Both the position numbers and the translations under genes were made by a program. From positions 1,047-65,046 of the forward strand of contig JAKAMI010000002.1 in the NCBI GenBank assembly GCA_021812945.1: a DNA stretch of 64,000 bases. The letters run 5' to 3'. The DNA is from a bacterium. GTDB taxonomy: Bacteria; Patescibacteriota; UBA1384; XYA2-FULL-43-10; JAKAMI01. The notes under the pieces were generated by a model. That model did not search any database. It had not been told where the DNA came from and saw only the letters and a list, made by a program, of their open reading frames with translations. Below, in pieces: positions 3,288 through 61,050 of this stretch. Each line of letters starts with the position of its first letter. Positions within the stretch are counted from its first letter, which is position 1.

Positions 3288-3389
3288 GAACGTCCCTCCA
3301 TGTGCGAGCTTGGTCTGTCTAATTCTAAAATAGATAATATTATATGCACTGTCTAGACCTCGAAGCTATAATCTGTTATTTTGGAGGAT

Positions 3390-4887: not shown

Positions 4888-7377
4888 ATGAAGAAAATTA
4901 TTTCAAAATCGTGGGAACCGGAAAAGTACGAGAAAAAGCTCTACTCTACTTGGGAATCGAAAGGTTATTTCAAACCGGAAATCAATCCGGAGGGTGAGCC
5001 ATACTCGATCATCATGCCGCCGCCAAACGCCAACGGCTCCCTGCACCTGGGGCATGCGGTTTTCGTGACTCTCGAGGACATTATGACCCGCTATGCCCGG
5101 ATGCAAGGCAAGGCTGCTTTGTGGCTGCCGGGCGCCGACCACGGCGGATTTGAAACTCAGATTGTATTCGAAAAAAAGCTGGAGAAAGAGGGCAAGAGCC
5201 GGTTCGGTATGGATCGTAACGAGCTTTACCGGATGATGTGGGATTTTAGCTTGGAAAATAAATCCGGGATGGAAGATCAGCTGAGAAAATTAGGCGCCAG
5301 CTGTGATTGGGATAGGGAAAAATTCACGCTGGATGAGGATATTGTCAAAATAGTCAACGAGACCTTTGTCAAATTATACAATGACGGACTGGTATATCAG
5401 GATCTACGGCCTGTCAACTGGTGCACCAAACACCAGACCTCGCTTTCCGATCTGGAAGTGAAATACGAGGAACAAACAGATCCACTCTACTTCGTCAAAT
5501 ATCAAATATCAAATATCAAATATCAAAAATATAAATCTAAAATCAAAAATTCAGAATACTTAACGATCGCGACTACAAGGCCGGAAACAATATTCGGTGA
5601 TACCGCAATCGCCGTCAGCCCAAACGATAAACGGTTTGCGGAATTGATCGGGTTAAGCGTGAAGATACCGTTGACCGAGATCGAGATTCCGGTCATTGCC
5701 GACAAAATGGTTGATCCGAAGTTTGGGACCGGCGCGGTTAAGATTACTCCGGCTCATGATCCGAACGACTTTGAAGCCGGCAAGCGCCACAATCTTGAGA
5801 TCAAAGAAGTCATAGATCAATACGGCCGGTTGAACGAAAAAGCCGAACCGTTCGCCGGATTAAAAATCTTCGAAGCCAGACGACAGGTGGTCGAGGCGAT
5901 GAAAGAAAAGGGCATTTTGGAAAAAGTCGACGAAAACTATATTCACACCGTCGGCAAGTGCTACAAATGCGGCGCGGTTATCGAACCGCGAGTCTCAAAA
6001 CAGTGGTATATCGCGGTCAACAAAAAGGGTAAAAAAAGCGGGAAAATATTAGCAAAAGACGCTCTGGAGGCGGTCAAAACCGGCAAGATCAAATTTGTCT
6101 CCGAAAAGTTTGAAAAGATTTTTTATCACTGGCTGACCAATATTCGCGACTGGAACATCTCGAGGCAGATCGTTTGGGGCATCAGACTTCCGGTTTGGTA
6201 CCGGAAGTCTAATATCAAAGATCAAATATCAAATGTCAAAAATGCAGATCAAAAATCTCAAAATGAAAATACAAAAAATGCGATAAGCACCCGCGAGGTG
6301 GGCTTTGACTCCTCGGGGGTGGGAGACGGTGAAGTAAGTGAAGTATATGTGGGGATAAATCCACCCGACGGCTGGATTCAGGAAACTGATGTGTTCGATG
6401 CCTGGTTTTCGTCCGGACAATGGCCCTTCGCCGCTTTGAAAGCGCAAAGCGGCTTGAGTTCAAAAGTCCAAAAGTCCAAAAGTCCAGAGTCGTCGGATGA
6501 TTATCAGAAATTTTACCCGACGGCGGTGATGGAAACCGGTTGGGACATCCTCTTTTTCTGGGTGGCGCGGATGATCATGCTGGGACTTTACGAGACCAGT
6601 CAAGTGCCTTTCAAAACCGTTTACCTGCACGGACTGGTGCGCGACAAAGACCGGCAAAAGATGAGTAAATCCAAAGGAAACGTCATTGACCCTCTCGGGG
6701 TGGCTGAGCAGTACGGCACCGATGCAGTGAGGCTGGCTCTGGTTTTCGGTACCTCGGCCGGTAACGACATTGTCATCTCCGAGGAGAAAATCCGCGGCAT
6801 GCGCAACTTCACCAACAAGATCTGGAACGCCTCTCGCTTTGTTCTGATTAACATTTCGGGTGGCGACATCGCGGCCGGAGAGGTCGGGGATATCAGAATA
6901 CAGAATACAGAGTACAGCTCGGAATATTTGACCGAAGCCGATCAACAAGTTCTTAAAGTTCATAAAGTTATAAAGTCGAAAGTTATCAAGTATCTTGAGA
7001 ATTATCAGTTTTCCCAGGCGGCTGAGCTTCTTTATGACTTTTTCTGGCACGACTTTTGCGACAGCTATATCGAAGCCAGCAAGCAGCAACTTGCTCCCCC
7101 TCGCGAAAGTACAAAAAAGGACACAAAAGTACAAAATTACAAATCAGAGATTGCCACGTCGCAGACTACTCGCCATGACGGTAACAATGAAACAATGAGA
7201 CAATGGGACAATGAAGTTTCTGAAAACACCAAAAAGGTCTTAATTAAAATTTTATCGGAAACCCTAGCCATGCTTCATCCCTTCATCCCCTTTGTCACCG
7301 AAGCCGTCTGGCAGGAGCTACGCGAAGTCTACTCCGAGCTTAAAAAGTCTATTATGATCTCTACTTGGCCGAAATAA
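4888..7377 (+). CDS. valS: Valine--tRNA ligase (class I aaRS) with several in-frame repeat insertions
   Basis: PPPNANGSLHLGHA (HIGH), KMSKSKGN (KMSKS), WCTKHQTSLSDLEV. Insertions such as KYQISNIKYQKYKSKIKNSEY, ISTREVGFDSSGVGDGE, SSKVQKSKSPESS and PPRESTKKDTKVQNYKSEI...NNETMRQWDNEVSENT match repeats found elsewhere in the window. Confidence 0.8.
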   Translation: MKKIISKSWEPEKYEKKLYSTWESKGYFKPEINPEGEPYSIIMPPPNANGSLHLGHAVFVTLEDIMTRYARMQGKAALWLPGADHGGFETQIVFEKKLEKEGKSRFGMDRNELYRMMWDFSLENKSGMEDQLRKLGASCDWDREKFTLDEDIVKIVNETFVKLYNDGLVYQDLRPVNWCTKHQTSLSDLEVKYEEQTDPLYFVKYQISNIKYQKYKSKIKNSEYLTIATTRPETIFGDTAIAVSPNDKRFAELIGLSVKIPLTEIEIPVIADKMVDPKFGTGAVKITPAHDPNDFEAGKRHNLEIKEVIDQYGRLNEKAEPFAGLKIFEARRQVVEAMKEKGILEKVDENYIHTVGKCYKCGAVIEPRVSKQWYIAVNKKGKKSGKILAKDALEAVKTGKIKFVSEKFEKIFYHWLTNIRDWNISRQIVWGIRLPVWYRKSNIKDQISNVKNADQKSQNENTKNAISTREVGFDSSGVGDGEVSEVYVGINPPDGWIQETDVFDAWFSSGQWPFAALKAQSGLSSKVQKSKSPESSDDYQKFYPTAVMETGWDILFFWVARMIMLGLYETSQVPFKTVYLHGLVRDKDRQKMSKSKGNVIDPLGVAEQYGTDAVRLALVFGTSAGNDIVISEEKIRGMRNFTNKIWNASRFVLINISGGDIAAGEVGDIRIQNTEYSSEYLTEADQQVLKVHKVIKSKVIKYLENYQFSQAAELLYDFFWHDFCDSYIEASKQQLAPPRESTKKDTKVQNYKSEIATSQTTRHDGNNETMRQWDNEVSENTKKVLIKILSETLAMLHPFIPFVTEAVWQELREVYSELKKSIMISTWPK

Positions 7378-12461: not shown

Positions 12462-12553
12462 CTCCTTCGCAAATATACAAATCAAGCGAAAGTACAAATG
12501 GGCGTAGCGTTCTATTTGTACTTTTGTAAAATTTGTAGATTTGCGAAGGGGAG
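12462..12553. repeat. Family-A palindromic element (CCTTCGCGAATCTACAAAT..AAAGTACAAAT-loop-ATTTGTACTTTT..ATTTGTAGATTCGCGAAGG), copy 1, in the rfbD leader
   Basis: About 90 nt imperfect palindrome. Its gcgaaggag end forms the rfbD SD. Confidence 0.7.
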
Positions 12554-12560
12554 AAGCTTT

Positions 12561-14940: not shown

Positions 14941-15051
14941 CTCCTTCGCAAATCTACAAATCCGGCAAAAATACAAATAATGCGCAACGTTCAATTTGTA
15001 TTTTCGTAAAATTTGCCGTGCCTGCCGGCAGGCAGGTAGATTCGCGAGGGG
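14941..15051. repeat. Family-A palindromic element, copy 2 (variant with an internal gccgtgcctgccggcaggcaggtag palindrome)
   Basis: Between the rfbC start and the rfbA stop. Confidence 0.7.
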
Positions 15052-15911: not shown

Positions 15912-16021
15912 TTCCTTCGCGAATCTACAAATCTAGCAAAAGTACAAATAGCGAATAGCGTCCAATTTGTATTTTCGTAAAATTTGCCGTGCCTGCCGGC
16001 AGGCAGGTAGATTCGCGAGGG
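15912..16021. repeat. Family-A palindromic element, copy 3, in the divergent rfbA / flippase intergenic region
   Basis: Same consensus as copies 1 and 2. Confidence 0.7.
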
Positions 16022-20148: not shown

Positions 20149-20236
20149 CCCCTCGCAAATCTACAAATTTTACAAAAATACAAATTGCACGTCGCGCGTT
20201 ATTTGTACTTTTGCTAGATTTGTAGATTCGCGAAGG
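20149..20236. repeat. Family-A palindromic element, copy 4, immediately upstream of ugd (provides its aaggag SD)
   Basis: cccctcgcaaatctacaaattttacaaaaatacaaat...atttgtacttttgctagatttgtagattcgcgaaggag. Confidence 0.7.
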
Positions 20237-20252
20237 AGAGAGGAGTTTTGTC

Positions 20253-21548: not shown

Positions 21549-21639
21549 CCCCTTCGCGAATCTACAAATTTTACGAAAATACGAATTGGACACTACTCGC
21601 TATTTGTACTTTTGCTAGATTTGTAGATTTGCGGAGGGG
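21549..21639. repeat. Family-A palindromic element, copy 5, upstream of the GT2 gene
   Basis: ccccttcgcgaatctacaaattttacgaaaatacgaat...atttgtacttttgctagatttgtagatttgcggagggg. Confidence 0.7.
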
Positions 21640-21667
21640 AGATACTTAGCCAGTTCATAGGAAGAAA

Positions 21668-22672
21668 ATGGAAAATCATCCGAAGGTTTCGATAATTATC
21701 CCAGCTAGGGCAATCAACGACTACATCTTAGAGTCGGTGCCGAAGATTTTGGAACTAGACTGGGATGACTACGAGATTTTAATAATTACCGATAAAAAAG
21801 ACACTCAGCACACTTGGCCCAAGACTCATTTACTTGTTTCGGGGCCAGTCGGTCCGGCCGAGAAGCGCGATCTTGGGGCGAAGAAGGCTAGCGGCGAGAT
21901 TTTAGCCTTTTTGGATGACGACGCTTACCCCGAGTCCAACTGGCTCAAGGAGTCGATCCACTGTTTTCTGGAGGATGAAAAGGTCGCAGCCGTCGGCGGC
22001 CCGGCCATAACCCCCGGTGACGACGGGATTTTACAAAAAGTCTCCGGCGCGGTTTTCGAGTCGTACCTCGGCGGCGGCCCTGCCCGCAACCGCTATATGT
22101 GCCTCGGCGACCATTGCCTGTGCGAAGACTGGCCGACCGTAAATTTACTAGTCCGCAAGGACGTTTTCGAGAAGATTGGCGGCTTCGATACCGCTTACTG
22201 GCCCGGTGAAGATACGAAATTATGTTTGGATATTTTAAACGCCGGCTATCTGATGAAATACGACCCCAAAGCTATCGTTTACCACCACCGCCGGAGCGAC
22301 CTCTACAAACATCTGAAACAAACCGGCAACTACGCTTTGCACCGCGGCCACTTTGCCAAGAAATATCCCAAGACTTCGCTCAAGCTGTTTTACTTTGTCC
22401 CCACTCTTTTTGACCTTTACCTTGCTGTCCTGCTGTCCAGCTGTTTAGCTGTCTGGCTCGGAGAAATACAGTTTGACAGCTGGACAGAATACAGTTTATT
22501 AATTCCAATCGCAATATATTCGGTCGGGCTAGTCATCGATGCTCTCATCATTAGTTGGCGGTGGAAGAACCCGCTAGTCGGCCTGCTGGCTACGCCGATG
22601 ATCCTTTTAACCCACCTCTGGTACGGTATTCGCTTCGTCCAAGGACTGGCGGTTACAAAATTAGCACGCTAA
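21668..22672 (+). CDS. Family 2 glycosyltransferase with C-terminal TM segments
   Basis: VSIIIPARAINDYI...LAFLDDDAYPESNWL. The last approximately 125 nt are duplicated in diverged form at 27463-27585. Confidence 0.8.
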   Translation: MENHPKVSIIIPARAINDYILESVPKILELDWDDYEILIITDKKDTQHTWPKTHLLVSGPVGPAEKRDLGAKKASGEILAFLDDDAYPESNWLKESIHCFLEDEKVAAVGGPAITPGDDGILQKVSGAVFESYLGGGPARNRYMCLGDHCLCEDWPTVNLLVRKDVFEKIGGFDTAYWPGEDTKLCLDILNAGYLMKYDPKAIVYHHRRSDLYKHLKQTGNYALHRGHFAKKYPKTSLKLFYFVPTLFDLYLAVLLSSCLAVWLGEIQFDSWTEYSLLIPIAIYSVGLVIDALIISWRWKNPLVGLLATPMILLTHLWYGIRFVQGLAVTKLAR

Positions 22673-22737
22673 AATCCTGAATCAATGACTCGAATCCGAT
22701 CTTACCCCTTTCGCTGATTTTTGATAAACTCATAAAT

Positions 22738-24276
22738 ATGAACAGCCCCGACCTAGCCCTAGATAACCACGACCGAGACCGTGAGAACCATCCGGATCTT
22801 GGTCGAATTATCGATCCTAAACACCTTACCCTTCTTGACGAGGTAGTTGATAACGGCCAACACAGATTGAGTGAACTATTGAAGCGACACGGGAAAATAG
22901 CCGAACCGCTTATGGAGCGTTTCGGGCAATTGCTCGAAAATGCCAGTCGACTCTCAGAATATCTGGACGACGTTTTGGGTCAAGCCGGTTACCAAAACGA
23001 TGCCGGAAGAATCCTGCAGAATATACTCCAACCGGCCGTAGCCTGGGCTGAGAACCAACGGTTTGAATATCCAGATGATAACCCCGACTATGATCCGCCA
23101 TTCCCCCTGCCTTCGGATCTGCACTTGTTCTACATCCACCCGATCGAATCTTTCTTGGGTCAAGCCGAACGTTCAATCGACGGTTTTGTCAAATATCAAT
23201 ACTATTTCGAGCGGTTCTGGCGAGAAACGGAGCCGTCGACGACGAAAAGCGACTTGATCACTCCGGAAAAAGTGGCCGCTGGCCAAGAGAAGATAATGCA
23301 GAGTTTAAATCTAAACGAGTACGAAAAAAGAACCGCCGATGCTTCTGTGACCCTGCATTATTTGCTACAAGGACTGCTGGAAACCTCCGATGCCGATATC
23401 TTGCGCCTCTTGCGTCACCAATCTCCTGCCCGAGAAAAACTGGTTTTGGACTTGGGTTGCGGTACCGGCCGGCTTGATATTGCTCTCGCCCTAACCGGTC
23501 GTTTTAAGATCAATGGGATAGACTTGTCCTCCGAAGTTCTGGAACAGGCCGGCCAGCGAGTCGCCAATATAGCCGGCCCTGCGGGGCAAGATCAAGTACT
23601 GGGCGATCTGGACACGGCTGTCGGTTCTCTCTGGGCAAGCCGGCAAAAAAGAATCGGCCGCCTCGACATAGACCGCCAGCGCTTAGAATTATCGGACAGG
23701 CTGAGCTTAAAAAAGGCTAGTTTTTTTGAACTGAACAGAGAGAAATACCAAGAGCTGTTTGGCAATCGACTTGCCGACGCTGTTACCATCACTTGGCACA
23801 CCTTCGGTTTTGCCGGTGACCGCTCGGGACAGCTTCAAGTCTTAGCAAATGCCATTGACAACCTGGAACAGGGCGGGAGGATTCTAATAGAAATGCCCGA
23901 CCGTGAATTGGGTGAGTACGGGCGGGTAGCAGAGAGCTATCATCGGCAATCGGGCGGCAAGACGCCGCTGGGAGTTGTGGTCGACCGACCGGCCGGCAAA
24001 GGCAGTGTTTCCAACCCCGACTCCGAAGGCGCTCCGCGCTACTTCCCGAGCAAGGCTGAGATGTTCTCGGTTCTAAAAGAAGCCGGTTTCGAAAAAGTCG
24101 GTTGTCAAAGCTACTATATTCGGATCCGCGACAACGGCAAAGAACGATTGATTAAAGAAATTCTGTACACAGCGCAAAAACCGCTGGCCGCCGGCGACTC
24201 GGAAAAAGAGGCAATACTAACCTATCGTCTAAGAAATCCCAACAGCTTTGATGCCCTGCCAAGCGAGCTCGAATAA
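22738..24276 (+). CDS. Hypothetical protein with a class I SAM-dependent methyltransferase domain (residues about 230-400) and a novel 220 aa N-terminal region
   Basis: LVLDLGCGTGRLDIALALTG (motif I) and ILIEMPD (post II). Confidence 0.55.
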   Translation: MNSPDLALDNHDRDRENHPDLGRIIDPKHLTLLDEVVDNGQHRLSELLKRHGKIAEPLMERFGQLLENASRLSEYLDDVLGQAGYQNDAGRILQNILQPAVAWAENQRFEYPDDNPDYDPPFPLPSDLHLFYIHPIESFLGQAERSIDGFVKYQYYFERFWRETEPSTTKSDLITPEKVAAGQEKIMQSLNLNEYEKRTADASVTLHYLLQGLLETSDADILRLLRHQSPAREKLVLDLGCGTGRLDIALALTGRFKINGIDLSSEVLEQAGQRVANIAGPAGQDQVLGDLDTAVGSLWASRQKRIGRLDIDRQRLELSDRLSLKKASFFELNREKYQELFGNRLADAVTITWHTFGFAGDRSGQLQVLANAIDNLEQGGRILIEMPDRELGEYGRVAESYHRQSGGKTPLGVVVDRPAGKGSVSNPDSEGAPRYFPSKAEMFSVLKEAGFEKVGCQSYYIRIRDNGKERLIKEILYTAQKPLAAGDSEKEAILTYRLRNPNSFDALPSELE

Positions 24277-25029
24277 ACCGGACATAGTCTTGGCTATCAG
24301 CTCGTTCTCGATAATCACGCCTATCAGGGCGTTATTTTTGTTATAGTTGGCAAAAGAAACCTTGTTGCCGTATATTTGCACTTCCAAAAGTGCCGGAAAA
24401 AGTTTTTGTTCGACGACCCTGGTCTCTCTTAGCTCCTCTTTGGTTCTTCCAATATATGAAGCGGTTTCCGGATCGGTTTTATCAGCGGAGACTATAACCC
24501 GGGCGGTAATTTTATTTTTAATCCTTAAAGGTGCGTAGCTTTTCCTCAGCCAACTGCTAACTGTTTCTTCGGCTTGTGTCAACCCAAGAAAAGACTTGAT
24601 CGGTTGCCCGGACCTCAAAGTATCCAAATAGAGATTTTTAATACCCTCTATCCCTTCAAAAACTCTTACTACCGGTTTCTCGGTGGTGTTTCTGTAAAGC
24701 TCGGAAAGTCCGGGAATGACCGAGTCGATCATCTTCTGGGCCTGGGAAAGCTCTCGTTCCCTGTTGTTCAAATAAACTTTTAGCTGGTACGGGTCGTTTG
24801 GCCGGAATTCGAGTTTCTTTTTTACGTCGGACTTTTGGACTAAGGACTTCTGGGCTAAGGACTGTAAAACATTGTAGAGATTGGTTCGCGAAAGCTTGGG
24901 GATCAGTTTCTGCATAGATAAAATGCTGACCTGTCCGTTCTTGATCAGAACTTCGTAAACCAAAGCCTCACTGTCGTTGAGACCGGTTCTGGCGAGTATT
25001 TCTTTATAATTGATGTCTTTTCTGTCCAT
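24229..25029 (-). CDS. TrmB-like winged-HTH transcriptional regulator
   Basis: ATG at 25029. N-terminal wHTH (LNDSEALVYEVLIKNGQVSILSMQKLIPKLSRTNLYNVLQSL). Converges on and overlaps the previous gene by 48 nt. Confidence 0.5.
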   Translation of the reverse strand: MDRKDINYKEILARTGLNDSEALVYEVLIKNGQVSILSMQKLIPKLSRTNLYNVLQSLAQKSLVQKSDVKKKLEFRPNDPYQLKVYLNNRERELSQAQKMIDSVIPGLSELYRNTTEKPVVRVFEGIEGIKNLYLDTLRSGQPIKSFLGLTQAEETVSSWLRKSYAPLRIKNKITARVIVSADKTDPETASYIGRTKEELRETRVVEQKLFPALLEVQIYGNKVSFANYNKNNALIGVIIENELIAKTMSGLFELAWQGIKAVGIS

Positions 25030-25189
25030 ATCTCTATTATAGATCAAGTAATATAATATGTCAATTATTAAATGACAAATAAATAGAAACGATGATTAAA
25101 GTAAAGATAATTGGTAAAATAGGATACTGATAAATACTTATAAATTAAGAGATCAATTTTAAAATAAACTTAAGTACGTCATAACACCA

Positions 25190-25218
25190 TTGACAAATGC
25201 AAAATAATATGTTATACT
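25190..25218 (+). promoter_or_regulatory. Consensus sigma70-type promoter (TTGACA-17-TATACT)
   Basis: ttgacaaatgcaaaataatatgttatact in an AT-rich spacer. No ORF follows. Confidence 0.6.
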
Positions 25219-25224
25219 GCTTCC

Positions 25225-25636
25225 GTTACGATGGAAATCGGCCAAGGGCTTCAGGAAGCCGGGCAATAATCCAAAGTAGCACCTTAACAACCGAATATAC
25301 GCAGGTAGTAGCTGGTTTCACCGCCTCAAGCCCCACCAGGTCGGAGGCAAAACCGAAGCTAAAGCGCCGGAATTAAGTCGGCTTCCGCCCCCAGCGGGTG
25401 GACGCGTATTCGTAATTATCCGGTCTTTGGCAACCCGATCCTAGAGTCAGGAGCTTTAGAATCAATTGAGTGTAGTTTTATCCTTGCTTCAGGAGTGTAG
25501 TGATAAACCTATATATAACCATTAATCGAATGAGCCCAGGCATCACCCTCGAGGTGGGCCTTGACTCCTCGAGGGTGGGACAGGTTGTTCTCTACCGCAC
25601 TCAAAACGGCGTTTAAAAACGCCGCCTTTCCAGCGC
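25225..25636 (+). ncRNA. Candidate non-coding RNA of about 400 nt, unknown class
   Basis: Perfect promoter upstream, GC-rich potentially structured sequence, no ORF over 60 aa on this strand, ends at hairpin cggcgtttaaaaacgccgcctttcc. It contains a family-D palindrome (caccctcgaggtgggccttgactcctcgagggtggg). No tmRNA, RNase P or SRP signatures were found. Confidence 0.3.
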
Positions 25637-26044
25637 TACTAATACATCATTAGAGGATCGGTTCGTGGTCTTCGGGCCATTGAACCCAAGATTCTCTATA
25701 GTCTCAATTCGCGACTCCCTTCGCTGCCCGTCATTCTGAGCAATCCCAACTGTCATTCTGAACGAAGTAAAGAATCTAGCGAAGCGAACAGCATTCTTTC
25801 CCATCTGGTCCTAAGCTGTCGGTGTCGGTGTACTGCCTACGCCAAGACTCAGGGGTGGAGAAGAAGAATTATTTTTTGTACAACCTTTGTCTCTTGTTTT
25901 TCACCCCGAGGGTGGGTTTTGACTCCCTCGGGGTGGGGCAAAAGACAAGGTTGTACAAAATACCCGCCGGCCTTCGCGCCAGGCGGGAAAATACCCTACC
26001 CCGGGTAAGTTCTCCATCTTGTCGGGAGCCGAAGGAGGCAGAAA

Positions 26045-26503
26045 ATGGAAGAAAAGATCAAAAAGGTCGTTTTTGTTCTGCTCGCCGCGATCAACGCGGC
26101 GATGGCGGCCTCGTTTGAGGCCGCCCGTCAAGCGCGCATTGAGGCGCGTCTTGACCGGCAGCGGCAGACTATCAAGAAGATGGCGATGGCCTCGCTCACG
26201 CCCACCGAGTGGGCGTTGGCCGGCCGCATCTCGGGTTACTTGGAGTGCCCTGAAGTAGCATTTCAGGGTTGGTGGCAGTCGCTGGCCCATAACTGGGCCT
26301 GCCGGACTGCCCTTGATTCCGAGGGGAACTTCCGCGACCCCTCGGAATCACAAGAAGTCGCGGATGCTCTTGCCTGGTTGGGGTTTCCTAGCCAGGCGGC
26401 GTATGCCACGTCGATGGAGGTCCTCTGGGCCATCCATCGCGCGATGGCGTATGTAAAAGCCGGGCACGAAGGCTGGATCGTGCCGTCGGGTGGTTGTGAA
26501 TAG
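26045..26503 (+). CDS. Hypothetical protein in a GC-rich (about 65%) cassette
   Basis: Strong SD gaaggaggcagaaaATG. 152 aa, no known domain. Confidence 0.45.
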   Translation: MEEKIKKVVFVLLAAINAAMAASFEAARQARIEARLDRQRQTIKKMAMASLTPTEWALAGRISGYLECPEVAFQGWWQSLAHNWACRTALDSEGNFRDPSESQEVADALAWLGFPSQAAYATSMEVLWAIHRAMAYVKAGHEGWIVPSGGCE

Positions 26504-26696
26504 CTAACCGGCCAAGGGACCATTCCGCGCCCTAAAGATTCCGATGAAAATCGGAACGTGTCCGCCTTTAGCGGATGCGGCGGCGTTATTCCGGTGCCTC
26601 GTTCGCCATGGCGGACAAGCAGCCCGAGTTCGACCGGAAGACGATAACTGAGATGGTGGCTGCTAACTAGATTTGTGGCAGAAAGGAGGTGAAACG

Positions 26697-26927
26697 ATGA
26701 GTTCTTGGATCAGAATCTGTTCTGAATGTGGGGGGGAAGTTGTCGGGCAGGCGGGTTGCTACGCCTGCTCGACGGAGGCTACCGCCCGCAGGGGCGGCCA
26801 GCCAGAGCAGGGGCACCACCTCTGTTCTGTTTGGTCGGAGGCTCAAGCCTCCAGTGAAAAGTGGTATCCACTTTTCACGGAGCGTTCTGACAGGGCATGC
26901 GACTGTCCTGCCAGAAACCTCCGATAG
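26697..26927 (+). CDS. Small Cys-rich (zinc-ribbon-like) hypothetical protein
   Basis: SD aaggaggtgaaacgATG. CSECGG...CYACS pair. Confidence 0.4.
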   Translation: MSSWIRICSECGGEVVGQAGCYACSTEATARRGGQPEQGHHLCSVWSEAQASSEKWYPLFTERSDRACDCPARNLR

Positions 26928-27263
26928 CCTCCGGAGTCTGCAGGCTCCGAGGTTGTTAATCCTGCAGCGTAAGTCCGGTGTGCTCCTGTAGCCCGAGATT
27001 CGACCGGAATACGAAAGCTTAGGTGGCGGCTACGATTTGCAATCATACCCGGCCCCGACGTCAGTGTCGGGGCCAAAAGAACAGTTGAGCCGAAATCCAC
27101 ACCAGGAAAGTAGGCTCACCTTCACCCGCTAAGCGGGTCTGATGAGTCTTTGAAAATTAAGACGAAAAGGTGAGTTATCGCCAACCTGCCTTTAGGTTGC
27201 ACTCCTGTCCCGACGCCCCGATTTGCGTCGGGGGTCGGGAGCCACCTGAGGGCAGATTAGCCT

Positions 27264-27306
27264 AAAAAATCCTCGCGTTATAACCGTACCGCGGGGATTT
27301 TTTAGT
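27264..27306 (+). terminator. Intrinsic terminator
   Basis: aaaaaatcctcgcg-ttataaccgtac-cgcggggattttttag. Confidence 0.6.
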
Positions 27307-27319
27307 TTGGAGACCAGAC

Positions 27320-27462
27320 CTAATTTTAGTCTGTAGCGAAATATAGCTTGTTCTGTCATTCTGAACACAGTGAAGAATCTCTACCTGTAGAATAGATCCT
27401 TCGCAAGCTCAGGATGACAGAAATTAGCTTAGGATGACAAAATCAAACTTAAGGATGACAGA
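27320..27462. mobile_element. Truncated copy of a GTCAT-hairpin MITE (full copy with terminal inverted repeats at 60907-61050)
   Basis: Roughly 85% identical to 60917-61040. The left TIR agtctgtagc is present, the right TIR is missing, and the copy ends exactly at the junction with the duplicated gene tail. Confidence 0.6.
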
Positions 27463-27585
27463 TATTAGTTGGCGGTGGAAGAACCCGCTAGTCGGCCTGC
27501 TGGCTACGCCGATGATTTTCCTCACCCACCTCTGGTACGGTATTCGCTTTGTCCAAGGCTTAATTGTTTCTAAATTGGCCAGATA
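27463..27585 (+). other. Diverged duplicate of the GT2 gene 3' end (candidate attR; displaced original gene tail)
   Basis: 52 nt identical core (ttagttggcggtggaagaacccgctagtcggcctgctggctacgccgatgat), then synonymous or conservative divergence. It encodes ISWRWKNPLVGLLATPMIFLTHLWYGIRFVQGLIVSKLAR* versus ...ILLTHLWYGIRFVQGLAVTKLAR* at 22548-22672, and is followed by its own terminator. Confidence 0.65.
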
Positions 27586-27602
27586 AAAGCTCTCTTAAAA
27601 CA

Positions 27603-27650
27603 CAGAACCGCCGCCTAGACTGACGACGATTGCGGTTCTGGTTTTTTGTG
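27603..27650 (+). terminator. Intrinsic terminator (bidirectional position)
   Basis: cagaaccgc-cgcctagactgacgacgatt-gcggttctg gttttttgtg. Confidence 0.65.
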
Positions 27651-27663
27651 CGACAGCGTGCGC

Positions 27664-28305
27664 CTACTGAGCGGTGGTCATCCAGTTGGATCGAGAACCA
27701 CACTGTGTCTCAAAATCGCCGACTCGCTCGAGGAGGAACTGAGAACGTGTTCTCGCTGCCGCCAGTTGCTTCTGGCGCACCTCTGTACACCGCTGAAACT
27801 CCCCAAGAATCTCGCGGACCATCTCCAGGGGTCGGAGACAGACACAGTTGAGGAGCTCCGTTGAGGTGACTACCCGGCTGGTGATCTCCACCGCTTTGCT
27901 GACTGTGAGATCACGATCCGAGTCGGGGGCCTCAGAGTAGGTCACCGTAGTAACAACCCATCCTTCTGAGCAGACACCCCAGATCTGACACCTATTGCTT
28001 AGTCTGTTCTCCTCCAACCATAGGAAACGCTGATCGTAGAAGAACATGCCTCTGGTGTTCTTCTTGAGAACCCCGGTGACTTTCGGCTTGTCCTGGAATA
28101 AATAGTGGGGAGATACACCGTCCCCCAGACATTCGACGTCAAGGATTGCCGAGAGTGGCAGGTCCCAGATCTCGTGCCTGAGGTAGTCGAGGAGTTGGTC
28201 GAATGTCTCTTCCCACCTACTTTCGCTGGTAATCTGGCGGATGACAGCGGCTCGTAGGTCACGTTCCCGGTCTGAGGTGAGTCTGATAGTGTTCTCGGTT
28301 GACAT
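27664..28305 (-). CDS. Hypothetical protein (no recognisable domain) adjacent to the IS
   Basis: ATG at 28305 with an aaggaggt SD. Confidence 0.45.
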   Translation of the reverse strand: MSTENTIRLTSDRERDLRAAVIRQITSESRWEETFDQLLDYLRHEIWDLPLSAILDVECLGDGVSPHYLFQDKPKVTGVLKKNTRGMFFYDQRFLWLEENRLSNRCQIWGVCSEGWVVTTVTYSEAPDSDRDLTVSKAVEITSRVVTSTELLNCVCLRPLEMVREILGEFQRCTEVRQKQLAAARTRSQFLLERVGDFETQCGSRSNWMTTAQ

Positions 28306-28389
28306 TGTCAACCTCCTTTGGGAGTTGCTCAGCAATTGCTAAGCTAGCCCGAGACTAGCATAAGTACGAATACTAAACAATACCCAAGC

Positions 28390-29716
28390 GGCTCTATGTC
28401 AAGTGGTGTGGTAGTAGGAGACTGATCGGGATAAATGCCAGCAATGCTTTTCTGATGTAGTTATCTACGTTTCTGAATCCGTACGAAAGACGTTTGATTG
28501 TTTTTAGTTTGGTATTAACTCCTTCGGTGTAGCCGTTAGTGGTGAAACGATCGAAGTAAGCCAGAATCTCATTTTGCCAGCGCATCAACATTTTCAGAAG
28601 TTGCCTGGTCGGTTGATGATTGGAGCCTTTCATCTTGTTAGTCAGGATATTAAAGCTTAGTTCCGCGAGTGTTTTGTTGGGTATCTTGTAGATCCGGCGC
28701 AACTCTTCTTTACAACTCCAGAGCTCGCCTAATTCCGGATATGCTTTGTTAATCTCGTTTAAGGCGACTCGTTCGTTTGGTTTTAGATGTTCTTTCGGTT
28801 TGTCAAAGATGACTTTGGGTAGTTTAACTTTGTCAGTCCCCTGGATTAAAGTTCTTAAGTTAGAAAGTTGACGATTGGCTTCGGCAATTACATGGAAAGC
28901 ATCAACTACGATTGTAGCCCTAGGTAGCTCCCTCTTGATTGTTTGGTAGTAACGCCTGTCCATATCTATACAGACTTCAGTAATGGCTTCCTTGCGCGCG
29001 GCTGGTATGTCTTGAAGAAATTTCTCAACCGTAATCCGACTATCATCCGGTAAGATAGAGATCAGCTGGCGATTTGTGATATCGGTGAAGGTAGGCAACA
29101 TTTTCTGGCCGGAAAAACTATGACAATCTAGACCCATTGAAATTACAATCCCTTCCGGCCAGACACCAACCAGAGGGTTGATTTTGTCGTTTAAGATTTG
29201 TTGAATGGTGGTAAAGCTAGTCTCGGCTAAATCCTGCTGAGTTTTGAAACTGGTTGAGCCCAAGCCCTTGATTATCTGATCTGCGTAGACCAGAGAATAG
29301 TTCTTATTAAGTGGAATTGATTTGTGGCGGTCGGTGGTGATGTGACGACGCCTATCTTTTTTCTGGCACCACCAGCAGAAGAATGCCCTAGTTTTAACTC
29401 TAAGCATAATTAAATTGCCTTGCCAAAACATGTGCTTAACCCGTCTGGGTTTTAAGTGGCGGTTAAGAGTCGTGACGTAGCGTCCGCAGTCTCTACAATG
29501 GACACCTTTAGTTTTTGGTCTTACGGTGATCAACATAACTTTGCCGTTTATCTCCGTATTTTCAACATGGAACTCTTGCAGTTTGAACATCTTTTTGAAA
29601 CAATTCTCCATAGGTAGACTCCTTGTAGTTAAGTGATATTTCCTACAATCAGTCTACCTACTTTTGTTTTACGCATAAAGCGTAGCTAACCGTACCACAC
29701 TGTTTAGTATAGAGCC
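28390..29716 (-). mobile_element. ISL3-family insertion sequence
   Basis: Imperfect terminal inverted repeats of about 25 bp: ggctctatgtcaagtggtgtggtag at about 28390 and ggctctatactaaacagtgtggtac (reverse complement) at about 29690-29716. No clear direct repeats. Confidence 0.55.
28394..29611 (-). CDS. ISL3-family transposase
   Basis: N-terminal zinc finger (CRDCGRYV...CWWCQKK) and C-terminal DDE_Tnp_ISL3 signature FDRFTTNGYTEGVNTKLKTIKRLSYGFRNVDNYIRKALL. Confidence 0.85.
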   Translation of the reverse strand: MENCFKKMFKLQEFHVENTEINGKVMLITVRPKTKGVHCRDCGRYVTTLNRHLKPRRVKHMFWQGNLIMLRVKTRAFFCWWCQKKDRRRHITTDRHKSIPLNKNYSLVYADQIIKGLGSTSFKTQQDLAETSFTTIQQILNDKINPLVGVWPEGIVISMGLDCHSFSGQKMLPTFTDITNRQLISILPDDSRITVEKFLQDIPAARKEAITEVCIDMDRRYYQTIKRELPRATIVVDAFHVIAEANRQLSNLRTLIQGTDKVKLPKVIFDKPKEHLKPNERVALNEINKAYPELGELWSCKEELRRIYKIPNKTLAELSFNILTNKMKGSNHQPTRQLLKMLMRWQNEILAYFDRFTTNGYTEGVNTKLKTIKRLSYGFRNVDNYIRKALLAFIPISLLLPHHLT

Positions 29717-29856
29717 GGGCGGTTTACACCCCAATCCAAAAAACCCTTGACTAATTTCTGTCATGCTGAATTTATTTCAGCATCTTAAGACAAGTGCGTA
29801 ACATTTTGGGATTCTGAAACAAGTTCAGAATGACGAAAAGAAAAGTTTCCGGAATA

Positions 29857-36364: not shown

Positions 36365-38935
36365 CTAGTCTTTTGTTACCCTCCAAACCTCTTCCAGACT
36401 GGTAAGACCGTCGAGGGCCTTGTCGATGCCTTCCTGTTTCATAGTCAACATCCCGTCCGCTATGGCGGCCTCGGTGATCTTGGACGAGGTGGCCCGAGCC
36501 AGAAGCAGTTCCTGGATTTTCTGATTGACATCCAAGACTTCGTATATGCCAATACGTCCTTTGTAGCCTGTGCCGTGACAGTTGTCACAACCCTCTCCAC
36601 GGTAAAAAACCAGCTTCTTGCCCTCCCATTTTTTGCGGGCATCCTCCGGCATTTTGGCGATCTCTTTCTTGACTTCCTCGATCTCTTTGTCAGTAACTTT
36701 GAACTCCTTTTTGCAGTCTTTGCAGATTTTGCGAGCCAATCTTTGGGCGATAACAGTATTGAGCGATGAAGTAATCAGAAACGGTTCCACTCCCATATCG
36801 ATCAGACGAGGACCGGCGCCGGCAGAATCATTTGTGTGTAATGTCGACAGTACGACATGACCGGTCAAGGCGGCGTTTACCGCCATTTCAGCGGTGTCCC
36901 GGTCGCGAATCTCTCCGATCATCACCACATCGGGATCCTGGCGGAGGATGCTGCGCAGGCCATTGGCAAAAGTATAGTTGATATCAGGATTGACTTGACT
37001 CTGATTGATGCCCGGCATCTGATACTCGATCGGGTCCTCCAGCGTCACGATATTGACCGCGACGTCGAGCAGGCGGTCGATGATGGCGTAAAGCGTGGTT
37101 GTTTTGCCGCTTCCGGTAGGACCGGTGACCAGAGTCATGCCGTGGCTTTTGTGAATACTGTTTTCCACCACGTCAAAACCGCGTCCCCGCAGGCCAAGGT
37201 CTTTGAGGGAGAGAATACCGGTCGATTTGTCCAGGATTCTCATCACAATCTTTTCGCCGAAAGCGGTCGGCATGGTTGAGACTCGAAAGTCGACTTTGCG
37301 GTTGTCGATCATCATCTGAATACGCCCATCCTGAGGTAGGCGCGATTCGTCGATCTTGATTCCCGAAAGAATTTTGATCCTCGAGGTGACCGAAGCCTGG
37401 ACCTCTTTAGGGATGGTCACTTTTTTCTGCAGAACACCATCCTCGCGGAAGCGAACATCCAAACCGTTTTCCGTCGGTTCGATGTGAATGTCCGAAGCCA
37501 GTTCGCGCACGCCTCTTTTGATTAGAGAAGTGACAATCCGCGAGACGGGAGCGTCCTCGGTAATTTTCTCGATCTTTTTCTCGGTAATCTCTCTTTGCTC
37601 TTTGCCGTCTTTGGCCTCGTCTTCGCTTTGGCTGATTGCCTCCGAAACTTCCGCCTCGACACCGGAGTATTGATCCAGAATCCGGTTAAGATCGGTTTGC
37701 ACCGTCAGTTTGGGAATGACTTCCCGCCCCGTTTGTTTTTTGATAAGCTCGACGGTTTCCAGGTCCTCCGGATCAATCATAGCCACCGTGAGCACGCCGT
37801 CGTTATCGGCGACCGGAACTACCTGATATTGGCGGGCGATTTTTTCGGGCAGTAAAGATAAGATTTTTTTATCGACGGTGGTCTTGGAGAGGTCGATGAA
37901 CTGCACTCCGGCGGCTCCGGCGTAGGGATCGCCGGCCGAGCTTTTTGGAGAAATCTCCGGATTGTCTCTTAGCGCTTGTATTTCCGATGGAGTTATCTCA
38001 TCCGGCGAGACGTTGGAAAGGTTGGTTTTCTCAGGTTGAGCCGCAGGCTGGCCCTCGACGGCGGACGAGAGGATATCGTCTTTGGTTTTTTTAACGAAAT
38101 CTTCAAAACTTATCCGAGGGCGATTTTGGGATTTGGTAATCTCGCCGATCTCATTCTCGGTCAGACTGGCCGGTTTTTCTAAATCGGCATCCGGTTTCTT
38201 GGCTTCGTTAAGCTCGGCTACCGCTACGTTGTCCGGTTGAGCGTCGGATTCGGGCGTGTCTTTGATCGGGAGCGATTGTTCCGCCAACTCTTTAAAGCTG
38301 ATGGGGGCCTGAACTTTCTCGTTGTTAACTTTCTCGTTGTTCTCGGCGAGACGATCCGCGGATTTATGATCTTCCGCTTTCAACTTCAAATCACCGGCAT
38401 CAAAAGAGGCAACCTCTCCTTCTGGTTTCGAAGGCTCAGAGTGATGAATCTTGACCTGTTCCACGGCTTTTGCCGGCTCAAGGTTACGAACAAAAATCTC
38501 ATGGTCTTTTTTGTCCGGCTCGCGGCGGTTGTTCGAGGTTGTCTTCGCTTCCGGCTCGGGAGCGTTTTTGTTGACATGTTTTTTGACCTGCGGGCTGGGG
38601 TGCCACTTGATGACATTGGTTGGAAGCATCACAATCTTATGGCCGCGGCCCCTGGGGTCCCGGATGGTTTTAGAGGGATATTTGTGAGTCAAAAAAGATC
38701 CGAAATTGGAAAAAATCAGTTTCCCCCCGTCTCTCAAAGTCTGCCCAAGACCGTCAATGAAAGCTTTGACGATCTTTTTGGCTTTTTTTTGCGAAATCCT
38801 TTCAGCTCTGGCTAAAGCTTTGATCAGGTCTTCAGTATTCAATTTGCCCCTCCCGACCGCAAGGCGGTCGCCCCCTCGCGAAATTACGAATAAAACACAA
38901 AAATACAAAAGCGCGAATAATTCAATCAACCCCAA
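36365..38935 (-). CDS. pilB: Type IV pilus assembly ATPase PilB (GspE family) fused to an N-terminal HU/IHF-like DNA-binding domain
   Basis: The C-terminal 570 aa carry the GSPII_E N-domain, Walker A VTGPTGSGKTTTLYA and the tetracysteine CDNCHGTGYKGRIGIY. Residues about 33-125 (NTEDLIKALARAERISQKKAKKIVKAFIDGLGQTLRDGGKLIFSNFGSFLTHKYPSKTIRDPRGRGHKIVMLPTNVIKWHPSPQVKK) align across their whole length with HU (HBsu). The likely true start is an internal TTG near 38842 preceded by GGGAGGGG. The frame is continuous with no stop between the HU and PilB parts. Confidence 0.7.
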   Translation of the reverse strand: MGLIELFALLYFCVLFVISRGGDRLAVGRGKLNTEDLIKALARAERISQKKAKKIVKAFIDGLGQTLRDGGKLIFSNFGSFLTHKYPSKTIRDPRGRGHKIVMLPTNVIKWHPSPQVKKHVNKNAPEPEAKTTSNNRREPDKKDHEIFVRNLEPAKAVEQVKIHHSEPSKPEGEVASFDAGDLKLKAEDHKSADRLAENNEKVNNEKVQAPISFKELAEQSLPIKDTPESDAQPDNVAVAELNEAKKPDADLEKPASLTENEIGEITKSQNRPRISFEDFVKKTKDDILSSAVEGQPAAQPEKTNLSNVSPDEITPSEIQALRDNPEISPKSSAGDPYAGAAGVQFIDLSKTTVDKKILSLLPEKIARQYQVVPVADNDGVLTVAMIDPEDLETVELIKKQTGREVIPKLTVQTDLNRILDQYSGVEAEVSEAISQSEDEAKDGKEQREITEKKIEKITEDAPVSRIVTSLIKRGVRELASDIHIEPTENGLDVRFREDGVLQKKVTIPKEVQASVTSRIKILSGIKIDESRLPQDGRIQMMIDNRKVDFRVSTMPTAFGEKIVMRILDKSTGILSLKDLGLRGRGFDVVENSIHKSHGMTLVTGPTGSGKTTTLYAIIDRLLDVAVNIVTLEDPIEYQMPGINQSQVNPDINYTFANGLRSILRQDPDVVMIGEIRDRDTAEMAVNAALTGHVVLSTLHTNDSAGAGPRLIDMGVEPFLITSSLNTVIAQRLARKICKDCKKEFKVTDKEIEEVKKEIAKMPEDARKKWEGKKLVFYRGEGCDNCHGTGYKGRIGIYEVLDVNQKIQELLLARATSSKITEAAIADGMLTMKQEGIDKALDGLTSLEEVWRVTKD

Positions 38936-48499: not shown

Positions 48500-48548
48500 C
48501 ACTTCGCGTTCAATTTGTATTTTCGTAAGATTTGTAGATTCGCTAAGG
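48461..48548. repeat. Family-A palindromic element, copy 6, spanning the rsmA 3' end and the NRAMP leader
   Basis: tccctcgcgaatctacaaatttggcaaaaatacaaat...atttgtattttcgtaagatttgtagattcgctaagg. Confidence 0.7.
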
Positions 48549-48574
48549 ATATAGAGGTCGCTAAGGAGGGGATT

Positions 48575-53837: not shown

Positions 53838-53909
53838 TTGTTGCTGTGTTTGGTGATTTCCGCTTAGACAGCGGTTTTTTGTTTGGGTGATATTTGCTAT
53901 CATTTAGCC

Positions 53910-60908: not shown

Positions 60909-61050
60909 GTCCGTAGTCTGTAGCCTGTTCCGTCATCCTGAGCTTGCGAAGGATCTCTACCTGTGGAATAGATCCTTCGCAAGCTCAGGATGACAAAATC
61001 AAGCTTAAGGATGACAAAATATCATAAGAAAGGCTACAGACTAACCATAG
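60907..61050. mobile_element. MITE-like element with terminal inverted repeats agtctgtagcc / ggctacagact enclosing GTCAT-type hairpins
   Basis: The internal tgtcatcctgagcttgcgaaggatctctacctgtggaatagatccttcgcaagctcaggatgaca is a perfect long hairpin. A homologous truncated copy is at 27320-27462. Confidence 0.6.

What the first reader, a model, noticed from the sequence alone, without database searches (positions are those of the whole stretch)
22548..27585. Roughly 5 kb insertion bracketed by two diverged copies of a GT2 gene 3' end (attL/attR-like) but with no integrase
The last 125 nt of the GT2 gene (22548-22672) recur at 27463-27585 with a 52-nt identical core followed by divergence that keeps the encoded C-terminus (GLAVTKLAR against GLIVSKLAR). 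The distal copy keeps a proper terminator and the proximal one runs into the next gene. This is the signature of a mobile element that integrates into the 3' end of a protein gene and brings its own version of that end. The bracketed segment carries a methyltransferase-domain protein with a novel N-terminal half, a TrmB-like regulator, a strongly promoted candidate ncRNA, a GC-rich two-gene cassette and a truncated MITE. No integrase or recombinase is recognisable, so the element may be mobilised in trans or belong to an undescribed integration system. An ISL3 element lies 0.8 kb beyond attR.
Basis: partly seen in the sequence, partly recalled or inferred. Interest (0 to 1): 0.8.

Follow-up and report, generated by a model that had tools for sequence, protein, structure and literature searches.

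The report
Insertion scar with duplicated glycosyltransferase gene end
A 4.9-kb patchwork of foreign and host-like DNA sits behind a cell-surface sugar-transferase gene in an uncultured CPR bacterium, bracketed by two versions of that gene's last 125 bases; it looks like a recombination scar rather than a self-mobile element, and it carries a previously unnoticed hammerhead ribozyme.

Summary
The last 125 nt of the GT2 gene (22550-22674) recur at 27464-27588: a 53-nt identical core, then 18 differences that change only 3 residues. The distal tail therefore evolved inside a functional GT2 allele. Relatives have GT2 followed by a radical-SAM gene, so the bracketed DNA is an insertion or replacement.

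Nothing supports a self-mobile element with a new integration system:
- No recombinase turns up in four HMM libraries.
- The methyltransferase and ORF152 are orphans.
- Every contig retrieved for this species has the same arrangement; no empty site, donor or viral copy was found.
- The 4.9 kb is a mosaic: host-like methyltransferase and TrmB genes, host-type dispersed repeats, and one strongly foreign GC-rich cassette.

Among about 165 GT2 loci from other genomes, four have small integrase-less cassettes, mostly toxin-antitoxin pairs, next to GT2 and bracketed by a duplicated gene end (three the GT2 3' end, one the upstream gene's 3' end plus the GT2 start). Their junction positions differ and show microhomology.

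The best reading is capture by host recombination that used the conserved GT2 tail as homology. Interest is moderate to low.

The parts
21668..22672 (+). Intact GT2 family glycosyltransferase gene (334 aa)
   Evidence: Pfam GT2 domains. Orthologues at 57-81% identity in Berkelbacteria/Patescibacteria MAGs.
22550..22674 (+). Proximal copy of the GT2 3' end (identical core 22550-22602)
22738..24276 (+). 512-aa class I SAM methyltransferase with an orphan N-terminal half
   Evidence: Methyltransferase domains only at residues ~225-453. Only a self hit among 5.8 billion proteins. Host-like composition. The AF2 model is unusable.
24229..25029 (-). TrmB-like wHTH regulator (266 aa)
   Evidence: PF01978 E=3.6e-8. 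A perfect TTGACA-17-TATAAT promoter at 25064-25036.
25190..25630 (+). Strong promoter (25190-25218) and a ~400-nt structured leader or candidate ncRNA
   Evidence: Promoter matches 11 of 12 positions with an extended TG. Fold z=-3.9. No Rfam match. Function is unverified.
25880..27310 (+). GC-rich foreign cassette: hairpin 25874-25960, ORF152 (26045-26503), zinc-ribbon ORF76 (26697-26927), hammerhead ribozyme, terminator 27262-27305
   Evidence: GC 58-59%, tetranucleotide z=3.7, the top outlier of the window. Both ORFs have AGGAGG Shine-Dalgarno sites (sequence). ORF152 has no homologue in the large protein database, and neither ORF matches any viral or phage locus tested. Bracketed by a 28-nt repeat at 25750 and 27353.
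27116..27173 (+). Type III hammerhead ribozyme; predicted cleavage after C27123
   Evidence: Rfam RF00008 at 41.5 bits, E=1.5e-6, below the gathering score of 48.5. The minimum-energy fold is the three-way junction, z=-3.7. The core CUGAUGA...GAAA and the UUC cleavage triplet are intact (sequence). The core plus helix II 29-mer is exact in crAss-like phages and in at least 120 IMG/VR contigs.
27322..27461 (+). Host-type dispersed (MITE-like) repeat with three tandem 20-nt units; it abuts the distal tail
   Evidence: A second copy lies at 60909-61020. Tandem units are listed. The joint shares ATTAG with the GT2 sequence.
27464..27588 (+). Distal orphan GT2 3' end (core 27464-27516) from a different GT2 allele
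   Evidence: It scores 94.9 bits against the family tail HMM, versus 88.0 for the proximal copy. One strain has CGG>CAG at the family-invariant Arg, position 27474.
27606..27648 (.). Bidirectional terminator hairpin shared by the orphan tail and ORF213
   Evidence: minus strand. The plus-strand T-run is read from the sequence.
27664..28305 (-). ORF213, unknown function, convergent with the orphan tail
   Evidence: No family hits. Only 4 weak relatives in an exhaustive HMMER search. AF2 pLDDT 38.
28389..29717 (-). ISL3 insertion sequence (transposase 28394-29611)
   Evidence: PF01610 and NF033550. 25-nt inverted repeats (I7). No 8-bp target duplication, and a sister contig has a different right flank.

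Best explanation
Proposal: the locus is a recombination scar in the variable part of a surface-polysaccharide gene cluster, not an autonomous element.

Mechanism: DNA from a related organism, in which a GT2 allele was directly followed by the methyltransferase/TrmB block, entered the genome by host recombination. The strongly conserved GT2 3' end served as the homology. Two routes fit:
- A single (Campbell-type) crossover of a circularised fragment carrying a truncated GT2 tail.
- Homology-facilitated illegitimate recombination: homologous exchange inside GT2, plus an illegitimate joint at the ATTAG microhomology at 27462.

Outcome: either route leaves the gene intact with one allele's tail and strands the other allele's tail, with its terminator, 4.9 kb downstream. 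The 53-nt identical core is the exchange or gene-conversion tract. The insert was later, or earlier, decorated with host-type dispersed repeats and with a nested GC-rich, probably phage-derived, two-ORF cassette. That cassette's transcript is cut by a type III hammerhead upstream of its terminator.

Shown: the duplication, the two-allele origin, the mosaic composition, the lack of a recombinase, the ribozyme motif, and the analogous cassettes elsewhere.

Inferred: the recombination route, the donor, the order of events, and which tail is native.
For: - Two alleles under purifying selection plus a non-random identical core.
- Homology ends exactly at the gene end, and the two copies have unrelated downstream sequence.
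- Relatives have GT2 followed by radical SAM and no methyltransferase/TrmB.
- No recombinase in Pfam, PHROGs, NCBIfam or PADLOC, either in the insert or among the other ORFs scanned in the window, except ISL3.
- The methyltransferase and TrmB genes are compositionally host-like, and the insert carries repeat families also present elsewhere in the genome.
- A 5-nt microhomology, ATTAG, lies at the distal joint.
- Integrase-less cassettes bracketed by duplicated gene ends recur at different positions: L027 (74 nt, VapBC), L079 (same cassette, ~27-nt remnant, with a CTGATC microhomology flanking the difference), L123 (~130-codon diverged fragment, HepT/MNT), L042 (upstream-gene end plus GT2 start).
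- Experimental precedent: single crossover of truncated-homology molecules gives 109-950 bp duplications, and HFIR joints show 3-10 bp microhomology (PMC3240628).
Against: - No donor genome with GT2 followed by the methyltransferase, and no empty site, was found. The methyltransferase and ORF152 have no homologues at all.
- Classical HFIR usually gives a deletion, not a duplication.
- The identical core could equally be an att-type core or a later gene-conversion tract. In L027 the two copies are 98.6% identical, against ~80% between the L027 and L079 GT2 tails, which suggests conversion. The identity pattern therefore does not discriminate between mechanisms.
- Which tail is native is unresolved.
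- A 5-nt microhomology is weak evidence on its own.
Confidence: 0.55

Rival explanations
1. A site-specific integrative element (genomic island) that targets the GT2 3' end. It has lost its integrase or is mobilised in trans by a host or helper recombinase, and the 53-nt core is the att site.
For: The canonical attL/attR geometry is present, with an element-supplied replacement tail and an identical core. GT2 tails are hit repeatedly in relatives. Part of the insert is compositionally foreign.
Against: No recombinase was found in the insert or among the ORFs scanned in the 64-kb window. Junction and core positions differ among the window, L027, L079, L123 and L042, with no shared motif. The parallel cassettes are 0.7-1.4 kb and have no room for an integrase. 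The insert is a mosaic with host-like genes and host repeats. There is no second copy anywhere, no viral form, and no polymorphism among strains.
Confidence: 0.2
2. The distal tail is the remnant of a once full-length tandem GT2 paralogue. Its 5' part was destroyed by later insertions and deletions (MITE, GC-rich cassette), and gene conversion kept the 5' part of the remnant identical.
For: Purifying-selection-type divergence fits two once-functional genes. L123 keeps a long, ~130-codon orphan fragment. L087 shows that plain tandem duplication of this tail does occur. Gene conversion between the copies is plausible.
Against: None of ~165 GT2 loci has two full-length copies of this family within 10 kb. 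The DNA between the copies is unrelated cargo, not duplicated flanks.
Confidence: 0.12
3. The distal tail, terminator and ORF213 are the incoming part, brought in next to the ISL3 element by an IS-mediated rearrangement. The methyltransferase/TrmB block is native.
For: ISL3 lacks a target duplication and has alternative right flanks in sister contigs, so it is a rearrangement point. ORF213 is compositionally atypical.
Against: There is no ISL3-like inverted repeat or target duplication at 27462. The distal tail is more similar to the resident GT2 (93.7% over 95 nt) than to any orthologue (~75%). Relatives lack the methyltransferase/TrmB block after GT2.
Confidence: 0.08
4. An assembly chimera that joins two strain variants.
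For: The source is a metagenome-assembled genome. Logan contigs break at the core, the MITE and ISL3.
Against: Contigs from six assemblies or samples span both repeat copies and the 27461/27462 joint with at most 5 differing bases.
Confidence: 0.02

Closest known systems
Campbell-type single-crossover integration / homology-facilitated illegitimate recombination (HFIR), as described for naturally transformable bacteria and E. coli conjugation (PMC3240628)
   Same: Foreign DNA is inserted next to a homologous anchor. The homology segment is duplicated on both sides of the insert (109-950 bp in the experiments, 125 bp here). There is microhomology at the non-homologous joint. No element-encoded recombinase is needed.
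   Different: This is a natural event in a CPR genome, inferred only from sequence. The donor is not identified. Classical HFIR mostly yields deletions. The identical core may reflect later gene conversion.
Integrase-bearing genomic islands and prophages that insert into the 3' end of tRNA or protein genes and supply a replacement end
   Same: Direct repeats made of the target gene's 3' end. One copy is diverged but keeps the coding sense. The original terminator is retained at the distal copy.
   Different: There is no integrase, no conserved att position among the parallel cases, mosaic and partly host-like content, and no evidence of excision or of presence/absence polymorphism.
Integrase-less modules moved by host recombinases (Xer-dependent IMEX elements and pdif modules of Acinetobacter plasmids; from my own knowledge, not tested)
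   Same: Small cassettes, often toxin-antitoxin, with no recombinase of their own, bracketed by short repeats.
   Different: Those use defined 28-bp XerC/D sites. Here the repeats are pieces of neighbouring genes, of variable length and position, and no dif-like motif was seen.
Prokaryotic and phage hammerhead ribozymes associated with small non-conserved ORFs (review PMC6155905)
   Same: A canonical core. It sits beside two small ORFs without homologues, in compositionally foreign DNA. Helix II and its loop are identical to many phage hammerheads.
   Different: It is a single type III copy (helix III open) in a CPR chromosome. Most phage copies sharing the 29-mer have another topology. The score is below Rfam's gathering threshold, and cleavage is untested.

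Membership tests
Site-specific integrative element (genomic island) | Flanking direct repeats (attL/attR) derived from the target gene end | tested here: met
   125-nt repeat with a 53-nt identical core.
Site-specific integrative element (genomic island) | Element-encoded tyrosine or serine recombinase (or another integrase) near an end | tested here: not met
   No hit in Pfam, PHROGs, NCBIfam or PADLOC for any ORF in the insert. AF2 models were too poor to test folds.
Site-specific integrative element (genomic island) | Presence/absence polymorphism, with an empty site in related strains | tested here: not met
   All contigs retrieved for this species carry it. The closest other relatives (81% or less) have different downstream genes, so no true empty site could be compared.
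Site-specific integrative element (genomic island) | The same att core or position in independent insertions | tested here: not met
   Junctions differ in the window, L027, L079, L123 and L042.
Single-crossover / HFIR recombination product | One boundary within homologous sequence; duplication of the homology segment flanking the insert | tested here: met
   Precedent sizes are 109-950 bp.
Single-crossover / HFIR recombination product | Illegitimate joint with 3-10 bp microhomology | tested here: inconclusive
   ATTAG is shared by the MITE unit and GT2 at 27462. A CTGATC microhomology occurs in L027 versus L079. These are short and could be chance.
Single-crossover / HFIR recombination product | An identifiable donor arrangement (a GT2 allele directly followed by the cargo) | tested here: not met
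   No relative of any cargo protein in ~165 GT2 loci, nor of the methyltransferase or ORF152 in the large protein database.
Hammerhead ribozyme, type III (RF00008) | Conserved core CUGAUGA...GAAA, an NUH cleavage triplet, three helices with helix III open | tested here: met
   Alignment to the model over positions 1-54. The minimum-energy fold is the three-way junction. UUC triplet before A27124 (sequence).
Hammerhead ribozyme, type III (RF00008) | Score at or above Rfam's gathering threshold | tested here: not met
   41.5 bits against 48.5; E=1.5e-6 for the 7.5-kb search.
Hammerhead ribozyme, type III (RF00008) | Self-cleavage activity | not testable with these tools
   Needs in vitro transcription or RNA-end mapping.
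ISL3 insertion sequence | DDE_Tnp_ISL3 transposase flanked by terminal inverted repeats | tested here: met
   PF01610 E=2.4e-53 and NF033550 at 217.8 bits. 25-nt inverted repeats at 28389-28413 and 29693-29717.
ISL3 insertion sequence | 8-bp target-site duplication | tested here: not met
   The flanks differ both in the window and in sister contig L001.
Anti-phage defence system (MADS or restriction-modification) | A multi-gene system with diagnostic partners | tested here: not met
   Only the SAM-binding domain matches mad2 (E=6.9e-11); no partner genes.

The most novel reading that the evidence does not exclude
CPR bacteria may host a class of integrase-less cassettes that insert at gene ends by a dedicated, trans-acting mechanism which duplicates a variable length of the adjoining gene end. 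The cargo is toxin-antitoxin pairs, ATPases and, here, a methyltransferase/regulator block with a ribozyme-bearing module. On this reading the GT2 tail is a preferred landing site, hit in at least three or four lineages.
Probability: 0.1. Interest if true: 0.7.

Novelty: new member of a known kind. Interest (0 to 1): 0.33.

Why it matters
The locus documents how a streamlined, uncultured CPR bacterium remodels a cell-surface polysaccharide cluster. The radical-SAM gene that follows GT2 in relatives is replaced here by an orphan SAM methyltransferase with its own regulator, and the conserved glycosyltransferase is kept intact by tail duplication.

Similar duplicated-gene-end scars recur around small selfish cassettes in related genomes. 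This suggests host recombination, perhaps fed by DNA uptake, is a routine route of gene gain in these organisms.

The hammerhead ribozyme puts a phage-type ribozyme cassette in a CPR (Patescibacteria) chromosome. None of this requires a new integration mechanism.

Tried and rejected
Searches that found nothing:
- Empty site or donor. Exact-protein look-ups of GT2, ORF152 and ORF213 gave only identical arrangements.
- The first genome-contig scan, with the single GT2 protein, found nothing.
- About 165 GT2 loci from GTDB genomes and metagenomes contain no relative of any insert protein.
- Homologue searches for the 512-aa methyltransferase and ORF152 returned only self hits. The viral scan with ORF152 was empty.
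- ORF76 and the TrmB-like protein gave nothing useful against phages and plasmids.
- No viral-contig copy of the GC-rich cassette or of this exact ribozyme exists.

Cryptic recombinase folds:
- AF2 single-sequence models of ORF213 and the methyltransferase had pLDDT ~38, so no fold search was run.
- PDB sequence searches gave only generic methyltransferase hits.

Ribozymes and RNA families:
- No second ribozyme or circular-RNA arrangement; there is only one hammerhead core in the window.
- Rfam at the gathering threshold finds only two tRNAs.

Considered and rejected:
- A defence system: only a generic methyltransferase-domain match.
- L087, considered as a parallel case, is a plain 404-nt tandem duplication.
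- ISL3 as the mobiliser of the distal segment: no inverted repeat or target duplication at 27462.
- The "identical core at the left edge" as proof of HFIR. I dropped this as decisive after L027 and L079 showed that gene conversion between the copies is likely.

Full report
**Observation**

The direct repeat is real. Positions 22550-22674 and 27464-27588 are 125 nt long and 86% identical. BLAST gives E=5.7e-34 for the first 95 nt at 93.7%. In the alignment, similarity starts abruptly at ATTAGTTGG and runs through a 53-nt perfect core. It then continues with clustered mismatches and stops 2 nt after the stop codon; beyond that the two copies have unrelated sequence.

In frame, 18 of 123 nt differ but only three residues change, all conservatively (L>F, A>I, T>S). 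Random substitution would change about 12 residues (P<1e-5). A 53-nt identical run among 20 differences has P=7e-5. Both tails therefore evolved as parts of functional GT2 genes, and identity is not spread evenly.

The distal tail fits the family's C-terminal profile slightly better than the proximal one (94.9 against 88.0 bits). One sister strain carries CGG>CAG at the family-invariant arginine in the distal copy, so today it is an unconstrained remnant.

The arrangement appears on contigs from several independent assemblies and samples that span both repeat copies and the joint. It is not an assembly artefact.

**Context**

The organism is a Patescibacteria (CPR) MAG related to Berkelbacteria, going by the names attached to GT2 homologues. 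The ORFs scanned in the rest of the window are ordinary core genes: DnaX, DnaB, UvrD, RecG, KsgA, type IV pilus genes, tRNA synthetase.

The GT2 gene belongs to a polysaccharide cluster (GalU, UDP-xylose synthase-like, UDP-glucose dehydrogenase, GT2). In the three closest orthologous loci (81%, 74%, 73% identity), GT2 is followed by a B12/radical-SAM gene, a small gene and more glycosyltransferases. None has the methyltransferase or TrmB gene. The bracketed DNA is therefore an insertion or replacement relative to the family's synteny.

No true empty site exists in the data. Every contig retrieved for this species has the insert, and the next relative is already too distant to compare.

**What the 4.9 kb contains**

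The segment is a mosaic:
- **Methyltransferase (22738-24276).** A 512-aa protein whose C-terminal half is a class I SAM methyltransferase and whose N-terminal half matches nothing. It has no homologue other than itself among 5.8 billion proteins.
- **TrmB-type regulator.** A winged-helix protein (24229-25029, minus strand) with a perfect sigma-70 promoter.
- **Composition.** Both genes have host-like GC and tetranucleotide content.
- **Divergent promoter and leader.** A near-perfect promoter (25190-25218) precedes about 400 nt that fold better than shuffles (z=-3.9) but match no Rfam family. Whether this is an ncRNA or the leader of the downstream genes is open.
- **GC-rich block (25880-27310).** At 58-59% GC against 47.7% for the window, it is the strongest compositional outlier of the 64 kb (z=3.7). 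It holds two ORFs with strong Shine-Dalgarno sites: ORF152, and ORF76 with two CxxC pairs. ORF152 has no homologue in the large protein database, and neither ORF matches any viral or phage locus tested.
- **Host-type repeats.** The block is bracketed by a 28-nt host-type repeat. A hairpin family that also occurs at 6288 precedes it. A MITE-like repeat with a second copy at 60909-61020 follows it.

**Hammerhead ribozyme**

At 27116-27173 Rfam's Hammerhead_3 model aligns end to end (41.5 bits, E=1.5e-6, below the gathering score of 48.5).

The sequence has the full CUGAUGA...GAAA core and a UUC cleavage triplet (cut after C27123). Helices I and II are closed and helix III is open. The minimum-energy fold is exactly this junction (z=-3.7).

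The 29-nt core plus helix II is identical in crAss-like phages and in at least 120 IMG/VR contigs, though most of those have a different topology. A review notes that prokaryotic hammerheads typically accompany small non-conserved ORFs and are persistently linked to phages (PMC6155905). That is exactly this cassette.

It is a single copy, so it would process the 3' region of the ORF152-ORF76 transcript ahead of the terminator at 27262-27305. It would not make a circular RNA.

**Recombinases**

None is detectable. Pfam, PHROGs, NCBIfam and PADLOC give no recombinase, relaxase or HUH hit for any ORF in the insert or for ORF213. Among the other window ORFs scanned, the only one is the ISL3 transposase.

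ORF213 belongs to a tiny obscure family. Single-sequence AlphaFold models of ORF213 and the methyltransferase were unusable (pLDDT ~38), so cryptic folds remain untested.

ISL3 (28389-29717) has inverted repeats but no target duplication. A sister contig continues differently after it. It marks a separate rearrangement point and explains why contigs break there.

**Is tail duplication recurrent?**

I fetched about 165 GT2 loci from GTDB genomes and metagenomes. I scanned them with a profile of the GT2 tail and by self-BLAST. Four loci show a small integrase-less cassette next to GT2, bracketed by a duplicated gene end:
- **L027 (Berkelbacteria).** A 0.7-kb VapBC cassette (RHH + PIN) lies between the GT2 tail and a 74-nt, 98.6%-identical orphan copy whose last 10 nt differ.
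- **L079 (another Berkelbacteria).** The orthologous cassette sits at the same place, but with only a ~27-nt orphan remnant. The extra 66 nt in L027 are flanked by a CTGATC microhomology.
- **L123.** A HepT/MNT pair lies between GT2 and a diverged ~130-codon orphan fragment.
- **L042.** A 1.45-kb block of small ORFs is bracketed by a 122-nt repeat covering the upstream gene's 3' end and the GT2 start, with an 86-nt identical core followed by divergence.

Other cassettes in these loci are bracketed by 48-154-nt repeats: an AAA ATPase gene, an AbiE-like pair and an MNT/HEPN-like pair, identified from their sequences rather than by a family search. L087, by contrast, is a plain tandem duplication.

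The junctions lie at different positions, there is no shared motif, and the cassettes are too small to encode an integrase.

**Mechanism**

These facts fit host recombination better than site-specific integration. Experiments show that single crossover of a re-circularised fragment with a truncated homology segment duplicates 109-950 bp of that segment around the insert. They also show that homology-facilitated illegitimate recombination joins the non-homologous end at 3-10 bp microhomologies (PMC3240628).

Here the distal joint shares ATTAG between the MITE unit and GT2. Homology ends at the gene end, as expected for two alleles from different genomic contexts. The strongly conserved GT2 C-terminus is a natural anchor.

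I first took the identical core at the left edge as a specific prediction of HFIR. But in L027 the two copies are far more alike than the L027 and L079 GT2 tails are to each other, so gene conversion between copies is likely. The core could be a conversion tract. The exact route (single crossover, HFIR, or an old site-specific event) cannot be settled from sequence.

A once full-length tandem paralogue is unlikely, because no locus has two complete copies of this family.

**Verdict**

This is an insertion with an attL/attR-like geometry and a foreign-allele tail. It is most likely a fixed recombination scar in a variable polysaccharide locus, not a mobile element with a novel integration system.

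The new elements are modest:
- an orphan methyltransferase/regulator pair that replaces the radical-SAM gene found in relatives;
- a probably phage-derived GC-rich cassette with a type III hammerhead in a CPR chromosome;
- the recurrence of duplicated-gene-end scars around small selfish cassettes in related genomes.

The last point leaves a small chance (about 10%) of a dedicated, trans-acting cassette-insertion mechanism.

Noticed in passing
L027:10184-11044, L079:10820-12000, L123:10751-12117, L042:500-2070; also L115:6234-7681, L163:5981-7439, L143:283-1777: Small integrase-less cassettes in other CPR or uncultured genomes are bracketed by direct repeats that are duplicated ends of neighbouring genes. 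The cargoes are VapBC, HepT/MNT, an AbiE-like pair, an AAA ATPase and MNT/HEPN. Repeat lengths (27-380 nt) and positions vary.
   Followed up: partly
window 12462-12554, 14942-15050, 15913-16021, 20149-20241, 21550-21642, 48461-48553: A ~93-nt palindromic intergenic repeat family (TCGCGAATCTACAAATTTTAC...GTAGATTCGCGA) sits between successive genes of the polysaccharide cluster (D1). It could be a terminator/regulatory element or a MITE.
   Followed up: no
window 4888-7377 (class I tRNA synthetase), 3381-4856 (TsaD), 53883-56282 (RecG): Dispersed short tandem and hairpin repeats lie inside long ORFs of core genes. Examples are 5480-5573 and 6195-6331 in the synthetase, 4276-4478 in TsaD, and 54743-54817 and 55019-55384 in RecG. 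The Pfam matches are split into several stretches, which suggests in-frame repeat insertions.
   Followed up: no
window 28389-29717 and L001:16722-18060: The ISL3 copy has no 8-bp target duplication, and a sister-strain contig carries a different sequence to its right. Other contigs end inside it. It is a multi-copy IS acting as a rearrangement or assembly break point.
   Followed up: partly
window 23099, 23104, 23105: The window differs from every sister contig that covers these positions at three clustered bases in the methyltransferase N-terminal region (C/C/C here, A/G/A elsewhere).
   Followed up: no
window 36365-38935 (-): The type IV pilus/T2SS ATPase (T2SSE + MshEN) carries an N-terminal HU-like Bac_DNA_binding domain, an unusual fusion.
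   Followed up: no
window 26629-26661 and 26999-27031: A 33-nt direct repeat (82%) inside the GC-rich cassette brackets ORF76 at a spacing of 370 nt. It could be a nested cassette boundary or a repeated RNA motif.
   Followed up: no
window 27409-27427 and 29751-29769: A 19-nt, 95% complementary inverted repeat built from the MITE-type unit brackets the orphan tail, ORF213 and ISL3. It may allow inversion of that segment (I12).
   Followed up: no
L024 (NC_055889.1, crAss-like phage cr53_1) 2051-2079: The identical hammerhead core plus helix II lies in a 2.2-kb unannotated gap of the phage genome, about 1.2 kb upstream of a tRNA-Leu gene.
   Followed up: no
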